Shown in pieces: positions 829-9,824 of a stretch of 13,534 bases of DNA. The notes beneath the pieces were generated by a model that ran no database searches, was not told where the DNA came from, and saw only the letters and a list, made by a program, of their open reading frames with translations. Positions within the stretch are counted from its first letter, which is position 1; every line of letters begins with the position of its first letter. The position numbers and the translations under genes are program-made. Source of the DNA: an uncultured bacterium (GTDB taxonomy: Bacteria; Hydrogenedentota; Hydrogenedentia; Hydrogenedentales; JAEUWI01); the NCBI GenBank assembly GCA_963977445.1, contig CAXBPH010000193.1, forward strand, positions 1-13,534. Direction: 5' to 3'.

Positions 829-1119
829 ATGAGTCAACGCCCCAGGATTGAGATCCACTACTGTGATCAGTGCCGATGGATGCTTCGGGCTACCTGGTAT
901 GCCCAGGAATTGCTGACCACATTTCAGGGACAATTGGGTGAAGTGGCTCTCGTGCCCGGTACGGGCGGGGTGTTTCAGGTCTTCTGTGAAGGGCACCGCC
1001 TGTGGGACCGAAAGGAAATGGGGGGATTTCCGGAGGCAAAAGACCTGAAACAACGGGTTCGGGACCAGATAGCCCCGGACCAGTCCCTTGGGCACAGTGA
1101 CCGAAAGGACGGGGACTAA
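829..1119 (+). CDS. SelT/SelW/SelH (Rdx) family redoxin, Cys form
   Basis: 96 aa with IEIHYCDQCRWMLRATWYAQELLTTF, LVPGTGGVF, LWDRK and GGFPEAKDLKQRVRD, the characteristic bacterial SelW-like motifs. CxxC with no in-frame TGA. Purine-rich RBS upstream. Confidence 0.93.
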   Translation: MSQRPRIEIHYCDQCRWMLRATWYAQELLTTFQGQLGEVALVPGTGGVFQVFCEGHRLWDRKEMGGFPEAKDLKQRVRDQIAPDQSLGHSDRKDGD

Positions 1120-3119
1120 TCCCGGGTCCGTCCGTACCAGCGGGCGATGCGGTCCGGGGATAGGCCTATAAAAAAGGCCCCGAAGCTGACGATGTTCTTT
1201 GTGGTGAGCCGTAAGCGGCCTTCTTTCAGCCACCTGCGGGATGAGGTTCGCACCCGAGCGGGTACGGTTACAATGGTCCCCTTTTCTTTGGCCCGTCGCA
1301 CCAAATCCAGGTCCTCGAGGATGGGGATATCTTCTATATAGCCCCCCAAGTCGTCGTATACCTCACGGCGCATAAACAAGGCCTGATCGCCGTAAGGCAT
1401 GTTCAGCCAGCGACTTCGGAGGTTCGCCGTCGCCTCGATCCAACGAAACCCCAGTCCGGGGCCATCAATTCCGAGGGAGAAAGCCCCCAGCGACACGTCA
1501 GAAAAGGACAATACGCGACGAACCCAGGCTTCGAAATCACGGGGCAGCTGGGTATCGGCGTGCAAAAACAGGAGTAGGCTACCCGAGCTGGCTTCAACGC
1601 CGGCGGTCATCTGGCGAGCGCGCCCACGGCCACTGGTGACGACGGTGGCACCCAATTCCACCGCTCTTCGGGTCGTTTCATCCGTGCTGCCGCCATCAAC
1701 GACGATAACTTCGACGTTTGCTGCGTACTTTATCCCCGTCAGCAGCGTGCCCAATCGCTCCGACTCATTTAATGTCGGGATGATAATGCTTATCGAATTC
1801 CGCTTCTGGGCCCCTTCCCACACCGCTAAATCGGCGGGGAAATCGACATCATGTCGGATGGGCAACTCAAAGACACGGAGATTGAGCGCCTTCGCCCGGG
1901 CCCGGGTGGCATTGAGCACCGTATCGGTCCCCCACTCCATTTCACCAAAGAAGGCATCCAGATCATCCAGCGGACTATGAATCGCCATGCCTATCAGATA
2001 GTACCCCCCATCGCTCGCCGGCCCCAGCACCAAATCGTGCTCATCGAGGGCTTCAAAGGCCGCCGTAGTCAGGGCACTATCCAAATCGGGGCAATCCGAA
2101 CCTGCTAGGACGACTTTTCCATAGGCCTTGGAAAAGCCATCCTCAACTACCCGGGCCATACGCGCCCCCAGGTCCCCTTCACCTTGGGCCGCATAAAGTA
2201 GCGTCGGCCCCAACCACGAGGTCATGGCGGCCCGCTCCGCCCCCGTATATTGGACCTGCGTATCTACGTCCGGGCGGATTGGTGGCGCGACCGTCACACT
2301 GTGTTTGGTCATGGCCCGTTGCAACTCGGCGGCGCCTTCTTCGCCCAGGGCCGGAATCAGTCGTGTTTTTGTGGTCCCTGCTTCTGGATAGCGACTGAAA
2401 AGAACCAGCAAACCCGTCTTCAGGGTTGGCCGTGCAAAAATGGCGGAGAAGAATATGGTGCTCAAAATCTTGTAGCCCGCCCCAATGACTCCCCGGATGG
2501 TACCGGATACCTTGGAAATGCCAACCCGTTTACGATACGAAACGGGCACTTCATCGGCAGGTACCCCGTGCAACGCCGCCTTAATCTGCATTTCCACCGT
2601 CCAGCCATAGTCCTGATCAGCCATACCCAGTTGGAGCAAGGTGCGGTATCGGATGGCCCGAAAAGGTCCGAGGTCGGTGTAGCGAATTCCCCAGAAGAAA
2701 CGGATAAGCCTGGTGGCCAGCCAGTTTCCGAAATGGGCCTGGGGCGTCAGGGCCCCCCGCTCACGCTCGCCACGGGTACGGGAGCCGATCATCATATCCA
2801 CCTCCCCCTGAATGATTGGGTCGACGAGGAGGGTCATTTCTTCGGGGTAATCGCTGTAATCACCATCCAGAAACACCACTATATCCGGCGTGCCGAGGGC
2901 GGCCATTCCCGCAAGGCAGGCGGCTCCATAGCCCCGTTGCCCTTCCCACACGACCCGCGCTCCGTGGGCGACGGCTTCTGCCCCCGTCCCATCGGTGGAA
3001 CCGTTATCCACGACAATGATGTCATCCACCCACTGGGGGATGGCGTCGATAACCTTCCCGATGGATGCTTCTTCATTGAGCACGGGGATAATAATGGCGA
3101 CGACGTGTTCGTTTCGCAT
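1116..3119 (-). CDS. Triple glycosyltransferase fusion: GT2 (DPM1-like) + TIGR04282/DUF2064-like + TIGR04283-like GT2
   Basis: Domain 1: IIIPVLNEE, VVDNGSTDGT, GYGAAC, FLDGDYSD, TDLGPFRAI. Domain 2: FSRYPEAGTTKTRL, QGEGDLGARM, GSDCP, LGPASDGGYYLIG, DVDFPADL. Domain 3: SIIIPTLNE, VVDGGSTD, FLHADT, PYGDQALF, EDLDL, TSSRRW. Start set at ATG 3119 because AAGGAG lies at 3129-3124 (667 aa). Confidence 0.9.
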   Translation of the reverse strand: MRNEHVVAIIIPVLNEEASIGKVIDAIPQWVDDIIVVDNGSTDGTGAEAVAHGARVVWEGQRGYGAACLAGMAALGTPDIVVFLDGDYSDYPEEMTLLVDPIIQGEVDMMIGSRTRGERERGALTPQAHFGNWLATRLIRFFWGIRYTDLGPFRAIRYRTLLQLGMADQDYGWTVEMQIKAALHGVPADEVPVSYRKRVGISKVSGTIRGVIGAGYKILSTIFFSAIFARPTLKTGLLVLFSRYPEAGTTKTRLIPALGEEGAAELQRAMTKHSVTVAPPIRPDVDTQVQYTGAERAAMTSWLGPTLLYAAQGEGDLGARMARVVEDGFSKAYGKVVLAGSDCPDLDSALTTAAFEALDEHDLVLGPASDGGYYLIGMAIHSPLDDLDAFFGEMEWGTDTVLNATRARAKALNLRVFELPIRHDVDFPADLAVWEGAQKRNSISIIIPTLNESERLGTLLTGIKYAANVEVIVVDGGSTDETTRRAVELGATVVTSGRGRARQMTAGVEASSGSLLLFLHADTQLPRDFEAWVRRVLSFSDVSLGAFSLGIDGPGLGFRWIEATANLRSRWLNMPYGDQALFMRREVYDDLGGYIEDIPILEDLDLVRRAKEKGTIVTVPARVRTSSRRWLKEGRLRLTTKNIVSFGAFFIGLSPDRIARWYGRTRD

Positions 3120-3438
3120 GGGACTCCTTATTGAACGCGGAGCGCGAGACACGCACCGAGGCGATTCAGCTTATGGTCTATGGGATGCTATCAGATGGGC
3201 GGGGTATGGTGACAGGGTAAAGGGGTTGTCCCTCCGCTAAGATTTATTCGTTCAGTCTCCAAATGATGCCACTTCACTCCAGAATTGACATAAGGTGGGG
3301 ATATAACGAATAGAATAGCGGGGGTCGTGGTGCGCGCACCCTGATCGTCCGAGTCGTGGGACTCAACTACCTGGACGATACCCCTGGTAAATCAATCTTT
3401 TATCCTACTAACCAGATTATTTTTGGAATAGCTGCATC

Positions 3439-6108: not shown

Positions 6109-6469
6109 CTTGTCCACAAGCTCACGTGCCGTCATCATGTGCCCCAAATGGTTGTGCCGCCCCCCTTGGGACGGTTTTTGCATTGCCGTATTCGTGGGTC
6201 CCTGATAGTAAGTAAAAGATATCCCGTAGTCTTTTTGCAACTATCGTTTCAGACTACCCGAATCGCCAACTCCGTCCTTCCCCTGCCAGGCTCCCCCATC
6301 ACCTATTCACTTCAGGTGCCAGCGACGCTTCTGGTCTCCTTTCGATACCATAGCCCCATAACAAGGCAATCTATTGGTGTCGGTTTTTCGCGGATGAAGA
6401 GGCCTCCGCACCCCGAGTTTACTACGTAACAAACTGTCAACAAATAACTTAGCAGAAGTAGACGATTCT

Positions 6470-6485
6470 TGGCACGGGATTGGCT
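6470..6485 (+). promoter_or_regulatory. sigma54 (RpoN) -24/-12 promoter for the peptide cluster
   Basis: TGGCACGGGATTGGCT: GG at 6471-72 and GC at 6483-84 are separated by exactly 10 nt, one mismatch to TGGCACG-N4-TTGCW. About 100 nt upstream of the first peptide ATG. Confidence 0.7.
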
Positions 6486-6586
6486 TTAAGTCCAGATGCG
6501 CAACGGAATACGGGGCGCGCGACAGTTAAAGAACGTAACGCAACGGAATGCAACAACAGCCTCGTGCAGGGGCGGAGGAAACTATT

Positions 6587-6766
6587 ATGGCTTCTATCAA
6601 CGTAAACGATATCAACGAAGAAATGACCTTGAGCGACGAAGAAATGGTCCACGTAAAGGGTGGCCCAGCCTATATTAAGTTCGGTGATATCAAAGGCGAA
6701 GTGGCAGACTCTCGTAGGGTCCCAACGGAAAACTTCTCCCTCAATTTCGAAAAAATCCGCTACTAG
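6587..6766 (+). CDS. Double-glycine-leader peptide 1 (59 aa) with Hcp-like core
   Basis: GGAGGA at 6574-79, 7 nt before ATG. Leader MASINVNDINEEMTLSDEEMVHVKGG, core PAYIKFGDIKGEVADSRRVPTENFSLNFEKIRY. Paralogous to the two downstream ORFs. Confidence 0.88.
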   Translation: MASINVNDINEEMTLSDEEMVHVKGGPAYIKFGDIKGEVADSRRVPTENFSLNFEKIRY

Positions 6767-6838
6767 ATTCGCGCTACAGCGACTTCACCTTACTTGTAAA
6801 ACAACAATATATCCCGTGCAGGGATGGAGGAATTTATC

Positions 6839-7018
6839 ATGGCTTCTATCAACGTAAACGACATCAACGAAGAAATGACCATCAGCGACGAAGAGGTTAC
6901 CAGCGTAAAAGGCGGTGCTGGCTATTTAAAGATCGGTGATATCAAAGGCGAAGTGGCGGGCTCCCGTACGATCCCGACGGAAAACTTTTCCCTCAATTAC
7001 GAAAAAATCCGCTTCTAG
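6839..7018 (+). CDS. Double-glycine-leader peptide 2 (59 aa) with Hcp-like core
   Basis: GGAGGA at 6826-31. Leader ends ISDEEVTSVKGG, core AGYLKIGDIKGEVAGSRTIPTENFSLNYEKIRF. 46/59 aa identical to copy 1 (hand count). Confidence 0.88.
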   Translation: MASINVNDINEEMTISDEEVTSVKGGAGYLKIGDIKGEVAGSRTIPTENFSLNYEKIRF

Positions 7019-7090
7019 AACCGCATTGCGGCGACTTCAATTTACTCGTAAATCAACAATGTATCCCGTGCAGGGATGGAGGAATTTATC

Positions 7091-7270
7091 ATGGCTTCTA
7101 TCAACGTAAACGACATCAAAGAAGAAGTGACCATCAGCGACGAAGAGATGGCCCACGTAAAGGGTGGTCCGGCCTATCTTAAATTGGGTGATATCAAAGG
7201 GGAAGTAGCGGCCCCCCGTACGGTGCCGTCGGAAAACTTCTCCCTTAATTATGAGCGAATCCGCTACTAG
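7091..7270 (+). CDS. Double-glycine-leader peptide 3 (59 aa) with Hcp-like core
   Basis: GGAGGA at 7078-83. Leader ends ISDEEMAHVKGG, core PAYLKLGDIKGEVAAPRTVPSENFSLNYERIRY. 47/59 aa identical to copy 1 and 45/59 to copy 2 (hand count). Confidence 0.88.
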   Translation: MASINVNDIKEEVTISDEEMAHVKGGPAYLKLGDIKGEVAAPRTVPSENFSLNYERIRY

Positions 7271-7402
7271 TAGCTCGTGACGGCCACAGACGTCGATCGC
7301 ACTGAAAATACATCTTATAAACGATCCAGGGACCGGCCGATATTCTCTGTAATCGCAGTCGGTATAAAGAGGGGTACGGGTACGTGCGACGGGAGAGAAT
7401 CC

Positions 7403-7443
7403 ATGGCGGCGCGGTGAAAGTTCACCGCGTCGTTATTGATTTT
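7403..7443 (+). terminator. Probable intrinsic terminator of the peptide operon
   Basis: ATGGCGGCGCGGTGA-AAGT-TCACCGCGTCGTTAT forms a long stem with G-U pairs, followed by TGATTTT. Confidence 0.65.
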
Positions 7444-7456
7444 GGATCCCGATGAA

Positions 7457-7476
7457 CCTGGGGCATACGCCCCAGG
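7457..7476. other. GC-rich hairpin between convergent genes
   Basis: CCTGGGGC-ATAC-GCCCCAGG is a perfect 8-bp stem with no good U-tract. It may be a REP-like element or a 3' end structure of the MFS mRNA. Confidence 0.45.
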
Positions 7477-7558
7477 GGCCGTGGCGGAGCAGTGCCAATA
7501 CCGTTGTCTACTTCCGCAAAGGGCAAGAGCAGGACTTCACGATTGTGACGAACCACGC

Positions 7559-9064
7559 TTAGTCGCCCCGCCACCATCCTGAGGGACGTCGGTGATGGCG
7601 GCGCTCTTCCCGGAGAGTCCCATACGGCGAATAGGTGAGACTCCGCATGCCGGCCACGTTGGAAATACTGCGGGCAAACTTGCGCACTTCACCATAGAAT
7701 TCCTGGACCACCACCCGCTCTTTTACTTCGCCCTCTTCCCGCACGGCCAGGAGGCGGTGCAGCGCGTAGAGGCCCAGAAAGAAGGCGAGCACAAAGAGGA
7801 AATCGAGGCCCCGTAGATTTAATGCGGGCACCGTGAGGCTCTCGCTGGGGCCCCCGATCAGGCCATAGTGTGCGACAAAACTGAATTCACGCACCGCAAA
7901 GTAATCCGCCATAAACCCGCCGCATATGGGCGCAATCGTGGCCGCTATTCCGGTCACCAATCCATTGACTGCGAGGAAGGCCGTCGCCTGACCGCGGGGT
8001 GCCGCTTTCAAGGCGATATTGCTGGAACAGAGAGCGACGCCGGCCGTGGAGATGCCGGCGAGGACGTGAATGCCCACCAGGAGCGGCAGGGTCATACTGT
8101 GGCTCTCCGGCAGGGTCGTAAAGGGCCAGAGGAGAAAGCTGATGACAAAGGCACTCCCCGACACGGACAGAACCGATTTATTGGAGAAGCGGTCCGCCAG
8201 ATTGCCCCAGAGGCGAAAAAACAGAACGTTCATAATCTGGCTCAGGACAGAGAGGGCGAGAACATAGCCCATACTCAGGCCGAGGCGACTGAGCATGTAA
8301 ACGGTGAAGAAAGGTGCGGCAAAATTAATGGCCAGATTCCACAACCCGAGAAAGGCGATGAGATTCCGAAAGTTGGCGTGCCTGAACGGGGCGGAAAGGG
8401 TTTCGTACAACCCCGACACGTGCTGGCCAGTCATTTCCGGCTCGGGGATGCGGCTGAGAAACAAGGTGCCTATGAGGCCCGCGACGCCACCGATGACGAA
8501 ATAGATGGAGTAGATACCCATCACATCACCGGTCTTATCATGATATATATCGACGGCGAAACCGGACACGAGACACAGGAACGCCCCCACGGCCGTGGAC
8601 AGGGTCATGCGCTTGGCAAAATAGCTGCCCATGATGCGCTCGGGGATAAAATCACGCATCCAGGAATTGTAGGAGCAGTTGGCGATGGCCCCAAGACCGA
8701 AATAGATGCACAAGGCCAGGAGCAGGACGGGTAGCCGACCTGCGGGTGGCACGATGAAGGGTATGGCCGCAACGAGGAACCAGGGGAGTCGGGAGGCAAT
8801 ACAACTGAGAACGACGAGCGTACGTCGTTTTCGGTAGCGCGCCACCAGATAAATGGCCGGCACCTGAATCACCTGGGAAAGGGGCTGTATGGCGGCGATG
8901 AGCCCGATTACCACATTGGACGCGCCCAGGTGAAGGGCGAAGGCCACCAGAAAGGCACCCGTGGTAAAGACGCCCATGGTCTGGGACGCGATACCATCCA
9001 GGAGCAGCATGCGGAGGCCGTGTTGTGTTTCCTTGCTATGCAATTCGGGATCGGTGTTTGTCAT
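7559..9064 (-). CDS. Major facilitator superfamily transporter
   Basis: 501 aa with about 12 hydrophobic segments. MFS motif-A-like WGNLADRFSNK, plus SWMRDFIPERIMGSYFAKR and APFFTVYML. Substrate unknown. Confidence 0.9.
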   Translation of the reverse strand: MTNTDPELHSKETQHGLRMLLLDGIASQTMGVFTTGAFLVAFALHLGASNVVIGLIAAIQPLSQVIQVPAIYLVARYRKRRTLVVLSCIASRLPWFLVAAIPFIVPPAGRLPVLLLALCIYFGLGAIANCSYNSWMRDFIPERIMGSYFAKRMTLSTAVGAFLCLVSGFAVDIYHDKTGDVMGIYSIYFVIGGVAGLIGTLFLSRIPEPEMTGQHVSGLYETLSAPFRHANFRNLIAFLGLWNLAINFAAPFFTVYMLSRLGLSMGYVLALSVLSQIMNVLFFRLWGNLADRFSNKSVLSVSGSAFVISFLLWPFTTLPESHSMTLPLLVGIHVLAGISTAGVALCSSNIALKAAPRGQATAFLAVNGLVTGIAATIAPICGGFMADYFAVREFSFVAHYGLIGGPSESLTVPALNLRGLDFLFVLAFFLGLYALHRLLAVREEGEVKERVVVQEFYGEVRKFARSISNVAGMRSLTYSPYGTLREERRHHRRPSGWWRGD

Positions 9065-9239
9065 GATGGACTTCCAGCGCGGGTCTTGGGGTTGCTTCGT
9101 TTATCGTGCCGCGGGGGGAGTTGCAGGTGGGTCAGGAGAACCTTGGATGACTGCAAAAGACTCGACTAAGGGTACAGAACGGTTGGCGCGAATGCAATCT
9201 ATTTGATGGGGTTGCCGTCATCTTGCGGGTGTGAGCGAT

Positions 9240-9824
9240 ATGGTGCACTTCGCCATAACACAGCGGCAGTTGCGGCAGGACATCCCGGGACGGACCCGCG
9301 CCAAGCCCTCTCGATTTTGTGGCGGGGAAGTCGTCGCAAGCAGATTGTCGTGAGAAGGAAAAGGTCATTCCGGGCGTGGGCCTGTCCCTGCGGGGTTTTG
9401 AAGGCAATCTTGCTGGACCGTCAGCAGTGACCCCGCTCCACGGGGACATGCCTCCGCCTTATGGTCTGCGGTGTATTCCTGCGTGGCGGGCACTGGCGAC
9501 ATGGTGCACTTCGCCATTACACAGCGACTGTTGCGGAGGGACGTCCCGGGACGGACCCGCGCACAGCCCTCTCGGTTTTGTGGAAGGGACCTTCGTCGCA
9601 AGCAGATTTTCGTGGGAAGGAAAAGACCATTCCGGGCGTGGGCCTGTCCCTGCGGGGATTGGAAGGCGATCGTGCTGGACCGTCAGCAGTGACCGCACTC
9701 CACGGGGACATGCCTCCGCCTTGTGGTCTGCGGTGTATTTCCACGTGGCTGGCACGGGCGGGATGGTGCACTTCTCTACCACGCCGTGGACGTGCGGCGG
9801 GACGTCCCGGGACGGACTCGCGCC
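9240..9824. repeat. Non-coding tandem repeat, ~261-bp unit x ~2.2, palindrome-rich (REP/BIME-like)
   Basis: Units begin ATGGTGCACTTC at 9240, 9501 and 9763 (periods 261 and 262). Long identical blocks such as CATTCCGGGCGTGGGCCTGTCCCTGCGGGG and TGCTGGACCGTCAGCAGTGACC occur in both full units. Confidence 0.9.

What the first reader, a model, noticed from the sequence alone, without database searches (positions are those of the whole stretch)
6587..7270. Three double-glycine-leader peptides whose cores look like a miniaturised Hcp (T6SS tube protein)
Seen: each ORF has a 26-aa leader ending [LI]SDEE[MV]xxVKGG and a 33-aa core [PA][AG]Y[IL]K[FIL]GDIKGEV-linker-[VI]P[TS]ENFSLN[FY]E[KR]IR[YF]. Established: LSxxELxxIxGG-type leaders are cleaved during export by C39-peptidase ABC transporters (bacteriocins, RiPPs). 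Recalled from memory: P. aeruginosa Hcp1 begins MAVDMFIKIGDVKGES and contains DRLTENVTLNFAQVQVDY about 105 residues later. The core matches both segments in the right order (YLKIGDIKGE vs FIKIGDVKGE; PTENFSLNFEKI vs LTENVTLNFAQV) with the middle removed. Inference: these are exported Hcp-derived peptides. They could cap or poison T6SS or contractile-tail tube assembly by beta-strand addition, act as decoys or signals, or self-assemble into beta fibres. I know of no described system like this.
Basis: partly seen in the sequence, partly recalled or inferred. Interest (0 to 1): 0.92.

Follow-up and report, generated by a model that had tools for sequence, protein, structure and literature searches.

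The report
Exported mini-peptides built from Hcp strands
Three tandem genes encode small peptides with an export leader, and their 33-residue mature parts are made of the first and a late beta-strand of the Hcp tube protein, as in an unannotated family found in several bacterial phyla.

Summary
Three 59-codon genes (6587-6766, 6839-7018, 7091-7270, + strand) form a 252-bp tandem array between a sigma-54-type promoter (6470-6484) and a terminator (7403-7436). dN/dS between copies is 0.19-0.35. Each has a canonical 26-aa double-glycine leader and a 33-aa core.

The Hcp link is real at sequence level. A profile of 17 such peptides finds P. aeruginosa Hcp1 (1y12) as the top PDB hit (E 4.9e-4), in two stretches: the N-terminal strand and a late strand. 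Signal-peptide-bearing Hcp-domain proteins share 13/13 residues with the start of the core. The core tail beats 1000/1000 shuffles against an Hcp-like profile.

The peptides belong to an unannotated family of 144 clusters. Members carry a GG leader or Nif11-type leader, an invariant "N-box" ([YF]xK[LI]GDIKGE), and a variable tail. Tails match another Hcp strand in 25 of 104.

Relatives occur in Hydrogenedentota, Acidobacteriota, Alphaproteobacteria and Desulfobacteraceae. Exporter parts (C39-peptidase ABC, HlyD) lie beside 4 of 12 peptide loci. No T6SS gene lies in any flank, and the window has no exporter.

Export and derivation from Hcp are well supported. The mode of action is unknown; poisoning of T6SS tubes has no support. 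This is a new variant of GG-leader cargo.

The parts
6470..6484 (+). sigma-54-type promoter (-24 GG / -12 GC): TGGCACGGGATTGGC, about 117 nt upstream of the first ATG
   Evidence: It is the only match in the window to TGGCACNNNNNTKGC (expected 0.10 per window; 19 of 200 shuffles had at least 1). The same element sits at the same distance before peptide arrays in Hydrogenedentota loci L001 and L005 and aligns column for column. No sigma-70-like site was found in 6200-7600.
6564..6580 (+). conserved box GTGCAGGGGCGGAGGAA containing the ribosome-binding site; variants precede genes 2 and 3 (about 6816-6832 and 7068-7084)
   Evidence: The box is invariant or nearly so in the window, L001, L005 and L006. 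It is repeated before each window gene.
6587..6766 (+). peptide gene 1 (59 aa): leader 6587-6664, core 6665-6763, stop 6764-6766
6839..7018 (+). peptide gene 2 (59 aa, P0001): leader 6839-6916, core 6917-7015
7091..7270 (+). peptide gene 3 (59 aa): leader 7091-7168, core 7169-7267
7403..7446 (+). intrinsic-terminator-like hairpin (15 pairs, 8 G-C) followed by a T-rich tail; likely end of the three-gene transcript

Best explanation
This is a self-contained, sigma-54-controlled operon of three paralogous precursor peptides. Each precursor has a double-glycine leader. A C39-peptidase ABC exporter with a HlyD-type adaptor, encoded elsewhere in the genome, is expected to recognise the leader and cut after Gly26. 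That releases an unmodified, Cys-free, hydrophilic peptide of about 3.7-3.9 kDa and 33 residues. The peptide is an internal-deletion derivative of a secreted Hcp-like protein. It keeps the Hcp N-terminal strand ('N-box', [YF]xK[LI]GDIKGE), starting two residues after the cut, plus the loop and strand near the Hcp C-terminus (R-x-P-[TS]-E-N-F-S-L-N-[FY]-E-[KR]-I). Shown: gene anatomy, purifying selection, GG-leader pattern, homology of both core segments to Hcp, membership of a large family, and exporter genes beside some relatives. Inferred: cleavage and export in this organism. The mode of action is also inferred and is the least certain step. In solved Hcp structures the two retained strands belong to the same beta-sheet and to the hydrophobic core. 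The mature peptide therefore most likely forms a small hairpin that reproduces an edge or interface of the Hcp fold. It would act outside the cytoplasm by beta-strand pairing, either with its paralogues or with exported Hcp-fold or N-box proteins, not with a T6SS. I put about 0.8 on 'exported Hcp-derived peptide' and about 0.35-0.4 on the strand-pairing mode of action.
For: Anatomy. Selection: dN/dS 0.19-0.35.

Leader. Positions -12 (I/L), -11 (S), -8 (E), -7 (V/M), -4 (V), -2 and -1 (GG) fit the LSxxELxxIxGG consensus. Across 108 of 114 small family members, -12 is L/I/V/M in 98, -7 is L/M in 76, -4 is V/I/L in 92 and -2 is G in 108. There are weak hits to curated GG-leader models: TIGR01847 at 14.0 bits against a cut-off of 15.7, and TIGR04149 at E 0.04-0.05.

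Three export signals place the N-box in the same register. GG-xx-box occurs in 98 peptides, with A (58) or P (32) at +1. Nif11-type leaders in P0058 and P0060 score above the TIGR03798 cut-off and end exactly at the GG. In full Hcp-domain proteins, Sec-type signal peptides judged by eye end ..A|A[AG]-box.

Hcp homology.
- Pfam T6SS_HCP hits two of the three window peptides at profile positions 113-126 of 129, E 0.13-0.29.
- 10 of 86 family members hit PF05638 at E<=0.01, best 2.6e-6.
- P0005 and P0006 (PF05638) share 13/14 and 13/13 residues with the core start and also ..P-x-E-x-x-SLNYEKI.
- The A4 profile finds 1y12_A Hcp1 at the top of PDB (E 4.9e-4) in two stretches. All 7 hits at E<=0.01 and 13 of 14 at E<=1 are Hcp.
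- hhalign of A4 against the Hcp-like alignment gives probability 98.6%, E 6e-16, on the C-terminal segment.
- Core tails score 18.7-24.2 bits against a shuffle maximum of 3.7-6.1, with 0 of 1000 shuffles reaching the real score.
- The Hcp-like protein P0130 folds as Hcp (TM 0.77-0.79 to 4w64, 3eaa and 1y12). Both retained segments are strands in it: E21-26, E136-143 and E146-155.

Structure papers (passages read). In EAEC Hcp1, strands b1, b4, b5, b8 and b9 form one sheet. The hydrophobic core includes V5, L7 and L9 in b1, plus V135, L137, Y139 and W144. Strands b8 and b9 contact the helix of the neighbouring subunit (PMC3925092). The A. baumannii Hcp core includes I4, V6, F8, F128 and L130 (PMC4469607).

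Export machinery beside relatives. A cNMP-binding/Peptidase_C39/ABC protein plus HlyD lies in L002, and a C39-ABC in L011. L004 has HlyD at the contig end plus a sigma-54 activator. L010 has an ABC protein plus a cNMP-binding protein matching TIGR03896.
Against: - The 13.5-kb window has no C39-ABC transporter, HlyD or any T6SS or Hcp gene. Export must work in trans and is unproven.
- Only 4 of 12 related peptide loci show exporter parts. L002 and L004 are orthologous, so these are about 3 independent cases.
- The curated GG-leader models are not reached, and Pfam T6SS_HCP is far below its gathering score (11.9-13 bits against 23.5).
- Two of the three cores begin with Pro after GG. I did not check whether C39 peptidases tolerate this.
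- The AF2 monomer model of the precursor is disordered (mean pLDDT 56, no strands), so the hairpin is not shown.
- Direct pairing of b1 with the late strand is not stated in the passages I read; they say only that the strands share a sheet.
- The Hcp-like profile used was built from proteins retrieved with the peptide profile, so it is partly circular. The independent tests are Pfam and PDB.
- 79 of 104 family tails show no Hcp similarity. The N-box alone may be the functional unit.
Confidence: 0.5

Rival explanations
1. The peptides are class II microcin or bacteriocin-like antagonists. The Hcp similarity reflects ancestry only. The conserved N-box would bind a target-cell receptor, as conserved N-terminal boxes do in some bacteriocin classes, and the variable tail would set specificity.
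For: The peptides have a GG leader. Tandem diverged paralogues occur here (3) and in L001, L005 and L012 (2 each). The family has a conserved N-terminus and hypervariable tails. The exporters of relatives are closest to NHLP-family 'bacteriocin export' ABC models TIGR03796 and TIGR03797. 2 of 86 members hit Bacteriocin_IIc. An ESM Atlas neighbour cluster is auto-named 'putative bacteriocin', but the score of 0.78 makes this a lead only.
Against: No small membrane-protein (immunity-type) ORF lies next to the array. Verified microcin immunity genes lie immediately adjacent (PMC12219008, passages). The cores are hydrophilic (GRAVY -0.35 to -0.63), near neutral (+0.8 to +1.0) and Cys-free, unlike typical membrane-active peptides. 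In the window's subclass the late Hcp strand is conserved across 17 divergent members. That is unexplained if only the N-box mattered.
Confidence: 0.25
2. The peptides are secreted signalling peptides (pheromone or morphogen type), made under sigma-54 control and sensed by a receptor kinase.
For: The sigma-54 promoter is conserved before the arrays. A sigma-54 activator lies directly upstream of the peptide gene in L004, and a large CHASE-PAS hybrid histidine kinase lies 4.5 kb upstream in L002. The exporters carry cyclic-nucleotide-binding domains. 2 of 86 members hit the ComC family. The peptides are soluble and unmodified.
Against: The window has no sensor kinase or response regulator. Three diverged copies and very many tail variants are unusual for a single signal-receptor pair. 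No receptor was identified.
Confidence: 0.12
3. The peptides enter other cells, or stay in the producer, and cap or poison T6SS or contractile-tail tubes by adding to Hcp strands.
For: Both retained segments are genuine Hcp strands. The late strands b8 and b9 contact the neighbouring subunit's helix in the Hcp ring (PMC3925092, passage), so interface mimicry is conceivable.
Against: No T6SS or tail gene was found in the window or among the 206 ORFs scanned from 16 related loci. The sole PF05638 hit there is the stand-alone Hcp-like gene of L013. T6SS tubes assemble in the cytoplasm, whereas these peptides carry export leaders. The closest full-length relatives are Sec-exported Hcp-like proteins, not T6SS Hcp.
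Confidence: 0.06
4. The ORFs are decaying remnants of a deleted Hcp-like gene with no function of their own.
For: The core looks like a single in-frame internal deletion of an Hcp-like gene.
Against: There are three intact copies with dN/dS of 0.19-0.35, conserved ribosome-binding sites, a promoter and a terminator. The same architecture is conserved in 17 divergent peptides from other organisms.
Confidence: 0.03

Closest known systems
Double-glycine-leader peptides exported by peptidase-containing ABC transporters (class II bacteriocins and class II microcins)
   Same: The leader is 26 aa and fits LSxxELxxIxGG. The peptides are small, unmodified and encoded in tandem. Relatives sit beside C39-ABC and HlyD genes.
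   Different: The mature part is derived from Hcp, and the most conserved part of the family is the first 12-13 residues after the cut. No immunity gene or exporter lies in the window. The cores are hydrophilic and near neutral. The leader consensus and its role are recalled textbook knowledge (Havarstein and colleagues, 1995; not read here).
Hcp, the T6SS tube protein (Pfam PF05638; e.g. P. aeruginosa Hcp1, PDB 1y12)
   Same: The N-terminal strand motif and the late strand motif occur in the same order. Both strands belong to one sheet and to the hydrophobic core of Hcp (PMC3925092 and PMC4469607, passages).
   Different: Only about 30 of about 130 domain positions are present, so no beta-barrel, helix or ring is possible from one chain. 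The peptide carries an export leader and has no T6SS context.
Signal-peptide-bearing stand-alone Hcp-domain proteins (P0005, P0006, P0107, P0130, P0142; L013:9947-10501)
   Same: They share 13/14 (P0005) and 13/13 (P0006) residues with the start of the core. The C-terminal motif P-x-E-x-x-SLNYE[KE]I is shared. The predicted mature N-terminus is in the same register.
   Different: They are full Hcp domains (PF05638 E 1e-29 to 1e-38; model TM 0.77-0.79 to solved Hcp) with Sec-type signals rather than GG leaders. As far as my searches show they are themselves undescribed.
Nif11/NHLP-leader precursor peptides with NHLP-type export systems (TIGR03798, TIGR03796, TIGR03797, TIGR03896)
   Same: Two family members (P0058, P0060) carry a bona fide Nif11-type leader ending at GG before the N-box. 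The exporters of relatives score best against the NHLP export models.
   Different: The window peptides have the short GG leader and do not match Nif11 or NHLP. No maturation enzyme lies in the window. The background on this system (Haft and colleagues, 2010) is recalled, not read here.

Membership tests
Double-glycine-leader / PCAT-exported peptides | N-terminal leader of about 15-30 aa with the LSxxELxxIxGG pattern ending in GG | tested here: met
   All three leaders fit at positions -12, -11, -8, -7, -4, -2 and -1. Family statistics agree. Curated models are only approached: TIGR01847 at 14.0 bits against 15.7, and TIGR04149 at 13.4-13.8 against 25.
Double-glycine-leader / PCAT-exported peptides | Cognate C39-peptidase ABC transporter and membrane-fusion protein encoded nearby | tested here: not met
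   The window has none. Among relatives, a full C39-ABC lies beside 2 of 12 peptide loci (L002, L011) and some exporter part beside 4 of 12 (also L004, L010).
Double-glycine-leader / PCAT-exported peptides | Cleavage after GG coupled to export | not testable with these tools
   Indirect only. Sec-type and Nif11-type signals put the same N-box at the same distance from their cut sites.
Class II bacteriocin/microcin | Adjacent small membrane immunity gene and antibacterial activity | tested here: not met
   No hydrophobic small ORF flanks the array. Activity is not testable here.
Hcp (PF05638) | Full Hcp domain scoring above the Pfam gathering cut-off | tested here: not met
   Scores are 11.9 and 13.0 bits against 23.5. 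The third peptide has no hit, and only profile positions 113-126 of 129 are reported.
Hcp (PF05638) | Sequence homology to Hcp strands (N-terminal and late strand) beyond chance | tested here: met
   Supported. This shows homology of fragments, not membership as a domain.
Hcp (PF05638) | T6SS gene neighbourhood (sheath, VgrG, baseplate) | tested here: not met
   None was found in the window or in the flanks of 16 related loci.
Hcp (PF05638) | Hexameric ring or tube formation | not testable with these tools
The AF2 monomer model was disordered.
Nif11/NHLP-leader RiPP precursors | Nif11- or NHLP-type leader domain | tested here: not met
   The window peptides have no hit. Relatives P0058 and P0060 score 35.9 and 41.8 bits against a cut-off of 32.3.
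RiPPs in general | Modifying enzyme encoded with the precursor | tested here: not met
   No candidate lies in the window. A SAM-methyltransferase follows the peptide gene in L009, L010 and L012 only.

The most novel reading that the evidence does not exclude
The N-box is an autonomous extracellular beta-strand docking module borrowed from the Hcp tube fold. Bacteria of several phyla, and at least one archaeal contig, would export it in three formats: whole Hcp-like domains via Sec, tandem N-box repeat proteins, and PCAT-exported mini-peptides. The mini-peptides pair the N-box with one further Hcp strand. They would act as soluble caps, primers or competitors that control or sabotage the assembly of exported Hcp-fold rings or fibres. 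That would be a T6SS-independent life of the Hcp fold regulated by fragment peptides.
Probability: 0.15. Interest if true: 0.9.

Novelty: new variant of a known kind. Interest (0 to 1): 0.7.

Why it matters
If the reading holds, a fold known only as the inner tube of a contractile injection machine has been cut into one- or two-strand pieces and sent out of the cell by peptide exporters. The family has at least 144 clusters at 50% identity, spans several phyla and carries no annotation.

This would add a new cargo class for peptidase-containing ABC transporters. It also points to stand-alone Sec-exported Hcp-like proteins whose function nobody has addressed. The peptides are short (33 aa), synthesizable and free of Cys and modifications, so beta-strand mimicry, self-assembly, signalling and antagonism can each be tested directly.

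If instead they turn out to be ordinary microcin-like peptides, the case still shows how new secreted peptides arise by internal deletion of a structural protein.

Tried and rejected
- Single-sequence phmmer of P0001 against PDB found nothing. Only the 17-sequence profile reached Hcp.
- The AF2 model of the precursor with alignment A4 had mean pLDDT 56 and pTM 0.14, with one 4-residue helix and no strands. It is uninformative.
- Complex prediction (four copies of the core) was not available and nothing was folded. Self-association and binding to Hcp-like proteins are therefore untested.
- I looked for a GG-leader fused to a full-length Hcp, as an evolutionary intermediate, using P0086 and lengths 'longer'. 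Of 72 candidates, none scored E<=1e-3. This is weak evidence, as the tool itself notes.
- tblastn of 9 window proteins against the 16 loci found no synteny; the only hit was a weak GT2 match in L016.
- Rfam at gathering thresholds found 0 matches in the window.
- No modifying enzyme, immunity-like ORF, exporter or T6SS gene was found in the window.
It was repeated with 20 closer sequences.
- No paper on this family turned up in these literature searches: 'GDIKGE' anywhere in a word, 0 papers; Hcp + double-glycine + leader peptide, 1 irrelevant paper; Hcp, peptidase C39, bacteriocin, cyclic nucleotide-binding, 3 irrelevant; Hcp-like, signal peptide, Planctomycetes, none relevant among the 20 listed; Nif11, Hcp, T6SS, none relevant among the 10 listed; PCAT, double-glycine, Gram-negative, cargo, 12 listed. 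The class II microcin survey PMC12219008 has 0 occurrences of 'Hcp' in its main text; I did not open its supplements.
- Not checked: the collections viral contigs and metagenome contigs (closed), and any complete genome of the producer.
Full report
OBSERVATION. The three ORFs are real and lie at the stated coordinates: 6587-6766, 6839-7018 and 7091-7270 on the + strand. Each encodes 59 aa: a 26-aa leader ending [LI]SDEE[MV]xxVKGG and a 33-aa core [PA][AG]Y[IL]K[FIL]GDIKGEV-(6 aa)-P[TS]ENFSLN[FY]E[KR]IR[YF]. Tandem Repeats Finder sees one array at 6563-7270, with period 252, 2.8 copies and 84% matches.

ANATOMY OF THE LOCUS. The only match in the window to the sigma-54 pattern TGGCACNNNNNTKGC lies at 6470-6484, about 117 nt before the first ATG (expected 0.10 per window; 19 of 200 shuffles had a match). 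No sigma-70-like site was found in 6200-7600. A 15-pair hairpin with a T-rich tail at 7403-7446 closes the unit. Every gene is preceded by a GGAGGA ribosome-binding site inside a conserved box, GTGCAGGG[GA][CT]GGAGGAA.

Between copies, dN/dS is 0.19-0.35. The counts are small (11-14.5 synonymous and 13.5-18.5 non-synonymous differences), but the copies are clearly kept as coding sequence.

The neighbouring genes are:
- an Rdx-family protein;
- a GT2-DUF2064-GT2 fusion;
- a Kef-type Na/H exchanger;
- an unassigned 220-aa membrane-anchored protein;
- an MFS transporter;
- two unassigned secreted-looking proteins;
- a MatE transporter.

The window has no ABC exporter, HlyD, T6SS gene, modifying enzyme or small membrane ORF of the immunity type. 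Rfam finds nothing.

THE LEADER. All three leaders fit the double-glycine consensus at positions -12, -11, -8, -7, -4, -2 and -1. Curated models are approached but not reached: TIGR01847 scores 14.0 bits against a cut-off of 15.7, and TIGR04149 gives E 0.04-0.05.

THE CORE AND HCP. On their own the window peptides give only weak Pfam hits to T6SS_HCP (E 0.13 and 0.29, third peptide none). Notably these fall on profile positions 113-126 of 129. Stronger evidence came from five directions.

(a) A word-based search among longer proteins returned 2 proteins at E<=10 out of 15 candidates. Both carry PF05638. They share 13/14 (P0005) and 13/13 (P0006) residues with the start of the core (GAGYLKIGDIKGE) and, about 125 residues later, P-M-E-S-L-SLNYEKI.

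(b) I built a profile from 17 peptides with the same architecture (A4) and searched it against 177,635 PDB sequences. P. aeruginosa Hcp1 (1y12_A) came first at E 4.9e-4 with two stretches: profile 29-47 on residues 9-26, and profile 40-57 on residues 119-136. All 7 hits at E<=0.01 and 13 of 14 at E<=1 are Hcp or Hcp fusions; the exception is an S-layer chain at E 0.99.

(c) Profile-profile comparison of A4 with nine Hcp-like proteins gives probability 98.6% and E 6e-16 over the C-terminal 24 columns.

(d) The 20 C-terminal core residues score 18.7-24.2 bits against an Hcp-like profile from which the N-terminal motif had been removed. The maximum over 1000 shuffles each was 3.7-6.1, and 0 of 1000 reached the real score. 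That profile came from proteins retrieved with the peptides, so it is partly circular. Pfam and PDB are the independent tests.

(e) 10 of 86 family members hit PF05638 individually at E<=0.01, best 2.6e-6.

The core is therefore an Hcp-like protein with roughly 110-125 internal residues removed. The linker (..R-x-[VI]-P-[TS]-E..) is itself the loop that precedes the late strand in the Hcp-like proteins.

WHAT THOSE SEGMENTS ARE IN HCP. The Hcp-like protein P0130 was modelled with nine sequences (mean pLDDT 77.8, pTM 0.71). The model superposes on solved Hcp structures: 4w64_A at E 1.8e-15 and TM 0.77, with 3eaa and 1y12 at TM 0.78-0.79. In the model the N-box is strand E21-26, and the late motif forms strands E136-143 and E146-155.

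From passages of the EAEC Hcp1 structure paper (PMC3925092): strands b1, b4, b5, b8 and b9 form one sheet. The hydrophobic core includes V5, L7 and L9 of b1, plus V135, L137, Y139 and W144. Strands b8 and b9 touch the helix of the neighbouring subunit in the ring.

From passages on A. baumannii Hcp (PMC4469607): the core includes I4, V6, F8, F128 and L130. [quoted passage not shown]

So the two retained pieces belong to the same sheet and to the core. Whether they are direct hydrogen-bonded neighbours is not stated in the passages I read.

THE FAMILY. A full HMMER search with a 4-sequence profile over 1.84 billion representatives gave 144 proteins at E<=1e-3 (16 at <=1e-10, 2 at <=1e-30). Of 114 stored proteins of <=120 aa, 108 show GG (or GA) followed by the N-box. 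In 98 the spacing is exactly two residues, with A (58) or P (32) right after GG.

The N-box is the most conserved part of the family: Y/F, then L/M/I/V, K (107/108), L/I/F, G (88), D (93), I (97), K/D/E, G (108/108), E (94). Tails vary. Against the Hcp-like profile without the N-box, 25 of 104 tails score >=8 bits, compared with 0 of 520 shuffles (maximum 4.6). Of these 25, 15 map to the late/C-terminal strand (the window's class), 9 to strand b2 and 1 to the penultimate strand. By eye, other tails recall further Hcp motifs (GGGGAGKVKFDRL; DKSST.LK), and 3 of 86 hit DUF1559.

The same N-box occurs at the predicted mature N-terminus of Sec-signal Hcp-domain proteins (PF05638 E 1e-29 to 1e-38, with profile position 1 on the Y of the box). 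It also occurs as tandem 17-21-residue repeats in secreted proteins (P0022, P0026, P0037, P0068, P0075) and repeatedly in very large proteins (P0007, P0076, P0081, P0122). Signal peptides were judged by eye; no predictor was run.

Two members (P0058, P0060) carry a Nif11-type leader above the TIGR03798 cut-off (35.9 and 41.8 bits against 32.3) that ends exactly at the GG before the box. Three unrelated export signals thus deliver the same N-terminus. This is the best indirect evidence for the cut site.

Mature cores are hydrophilic (median GRAVY -0.41) and near neutral (median charge +0.8). Only 10 of 108 contain a Cys. The window cores are 3.7-3.9 kDa with pI 8.4-8.8. No source gives any member a name other than 'hypothetical protein': 10 clusters were looked up and 1 carried that name. 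NCBIfam and Pfam have no model for the family. An ESM Atlas look-up gave only sub-threshold leads. These include a 57-aa cluster of 51 members, 67% with PF05638, and a cluster auto-named 'putative bacteriocin' (scores 0.77-0.83).

GENOMIC CONTEXT OF RELATIVES. Twelve hold GG-leader peptides:
- four from Candidatus Hydrogenedentota MAGs (L001 has a 58%-identical, same-architecture peptide);
- two from chromosome OW818658.1;
- one from Desulfobacteraceae;
- four from Alphaproteobacteria;
- one from Acidobacteriota.

Exporter genes lie next to the peptide gene in four loci. L002 has cNMP-binding x2 + Peptidase_C39 + ABC, plus HlyD. L011 has the same fused ABC protein. L004 has HlyD at the contig end plus a sigma-54 activator directly upstream. 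L010 has an ABC protein plus a cNMP-binding protein matching TIGR03896, 'bacteriocin-type transport-associated'. L002 and L004 are orthologous.

The best NCBIfam matches of the ABC proteins are the NHLP-family export models TIGR03796 and TIGR03797, all below their equivalog cut-offs. A SAM-methyltransferase with a MethyTransf_Reg domain follows the peptide gene in L010 and L012, and a SAM-methyltransferase without a detected MethyTransf_Reg domain follows it in L009.

The sigma-54 element and the 5' leader of the window align with those of L001 and L005. The window therefore probably comes from Hydrogenedentota; this is an inference. Among 206 ORFs scanned from the 16 loci, no T6SS component appears except the stand-alone Hcp-like gene of L013, on a contig with archaeal markers. 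The window shares no synteny with any locus.

HOW IT MOST LIKELY WORKS. Shown: a regulated three-gene operon, GG leaders, Hcp-derived cores under purifying selection, and a large family whose relatives are sometimes encoded beside peptide exporters. Inferred with good support (about 0.8): the precursors are cut after GG and exported by a C39-ABC/HlyD system encoded elsewhere.

Inferred with modest support (about 0.35-0.4): the mature peptide acts through beta-strand pairing. In the window's subclass both the N-box and the late strand are conserved across 17 divergent members with different leader types. The two strands share a sheet in Hcp. The N-box recurs wherever Hcp-like material is exported. 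The accessible partners would be the paralogous peptides or exported Hcp-fold or N-box proteins, not cytoplasmic T6SS tubes.

The evidence for and against each is given in the Rival explanations section.

NOVELTY. The export route is a known kind. An Hcp-fragment cargo, the N-box family and the stand-alone Sec-type Hcp-like proteins appear undescribed in the libraries and the literature I could search. I file it as a new variant of a known kind.

LIMITS. The producer's genome is not available. Supplements of the microcin survey were not opened. The Havarstein (leader consensus) and Haft (Nif11/NHLP) background is recalled, not read.

Noticed in passing
window 9235-9823: A second tandem repeat lies between the MFS gene and the LolA-like gene, with period about 262 bp, 2.3 copies and 86% matches. 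Each unit holds a GC-rich near-palindrome (..GGGACGTCCCGGGACGGAC..). No Rfam hit and no convincing ORF.
   Followed up: partly
window 1116-3152 (-): A 678-aa fusion protein carries a family-2 glycosyltransferase, DUF2064 and a second family-2 glycosyltransferase.
   Followed up: no
L013:9947-10501: A stand-alone Hcp-domain protein (PF05638, E 5e-33) has a signal-peptide-like N-terminus. Its contig is labelled Woesearchaeota and carries archaeal markers (TFIIE alpha, PTH2, ZPR1, SepF). No other T6SS gene lies within 10 kb.
   Followed up: partly
L009:8877-10106, L010:10439-11830, L012:10198-11550: In three alphaproteobacterial loci a SAM-methyltransferase directly follows the peptide gene; in L010 and L012 it also carries a MethyTransf_Reg domain. 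Some family members may therefore be methylated.
   Followed up: no
family members hitting PF07596 (3 of 86; by eye P0044, P0106, P0147): Some tails look like conserved end motifs of DUF1559 (prepilin-like, planctomycete-type) proteins instead of Hcp strands. The N-box can therefore be joined to terminal strands of another secreted family. The call did not list which members hit.
   Followed up: no
P0035, P0123, P0127: These ORFs of 159-210 aa hold three or four repeats of a GG-leader-like unit (..LTDEQLAEVKGG) followed by a short Gly/Cys-rich core. They matched through the leader only, carry no N-box, and look like multi-cassette precursors.
   Followed up: no
P0007, P0076, P0081, P0122, P0034: Very large proteins (389-936 aa) hold up to 15 repeats of N-box or Hcp pieces. 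Several begin with an ..LEPRxLLAG motif. P0076 and P0081 contain whole or partial PF05638 domains.
   Followed up: no
window 6811-6825 and 7063-7077; L001, L003, L005, L006 upstream regions: The ribosome-binding-site box begins with a short palindrome (CCCGTGCAGGG / CCCTGTGCAGGGG) that could form a small hairpin just 5' of the Shine-Dalgarno sequence. This may be a translational control element.
   Followed up: no
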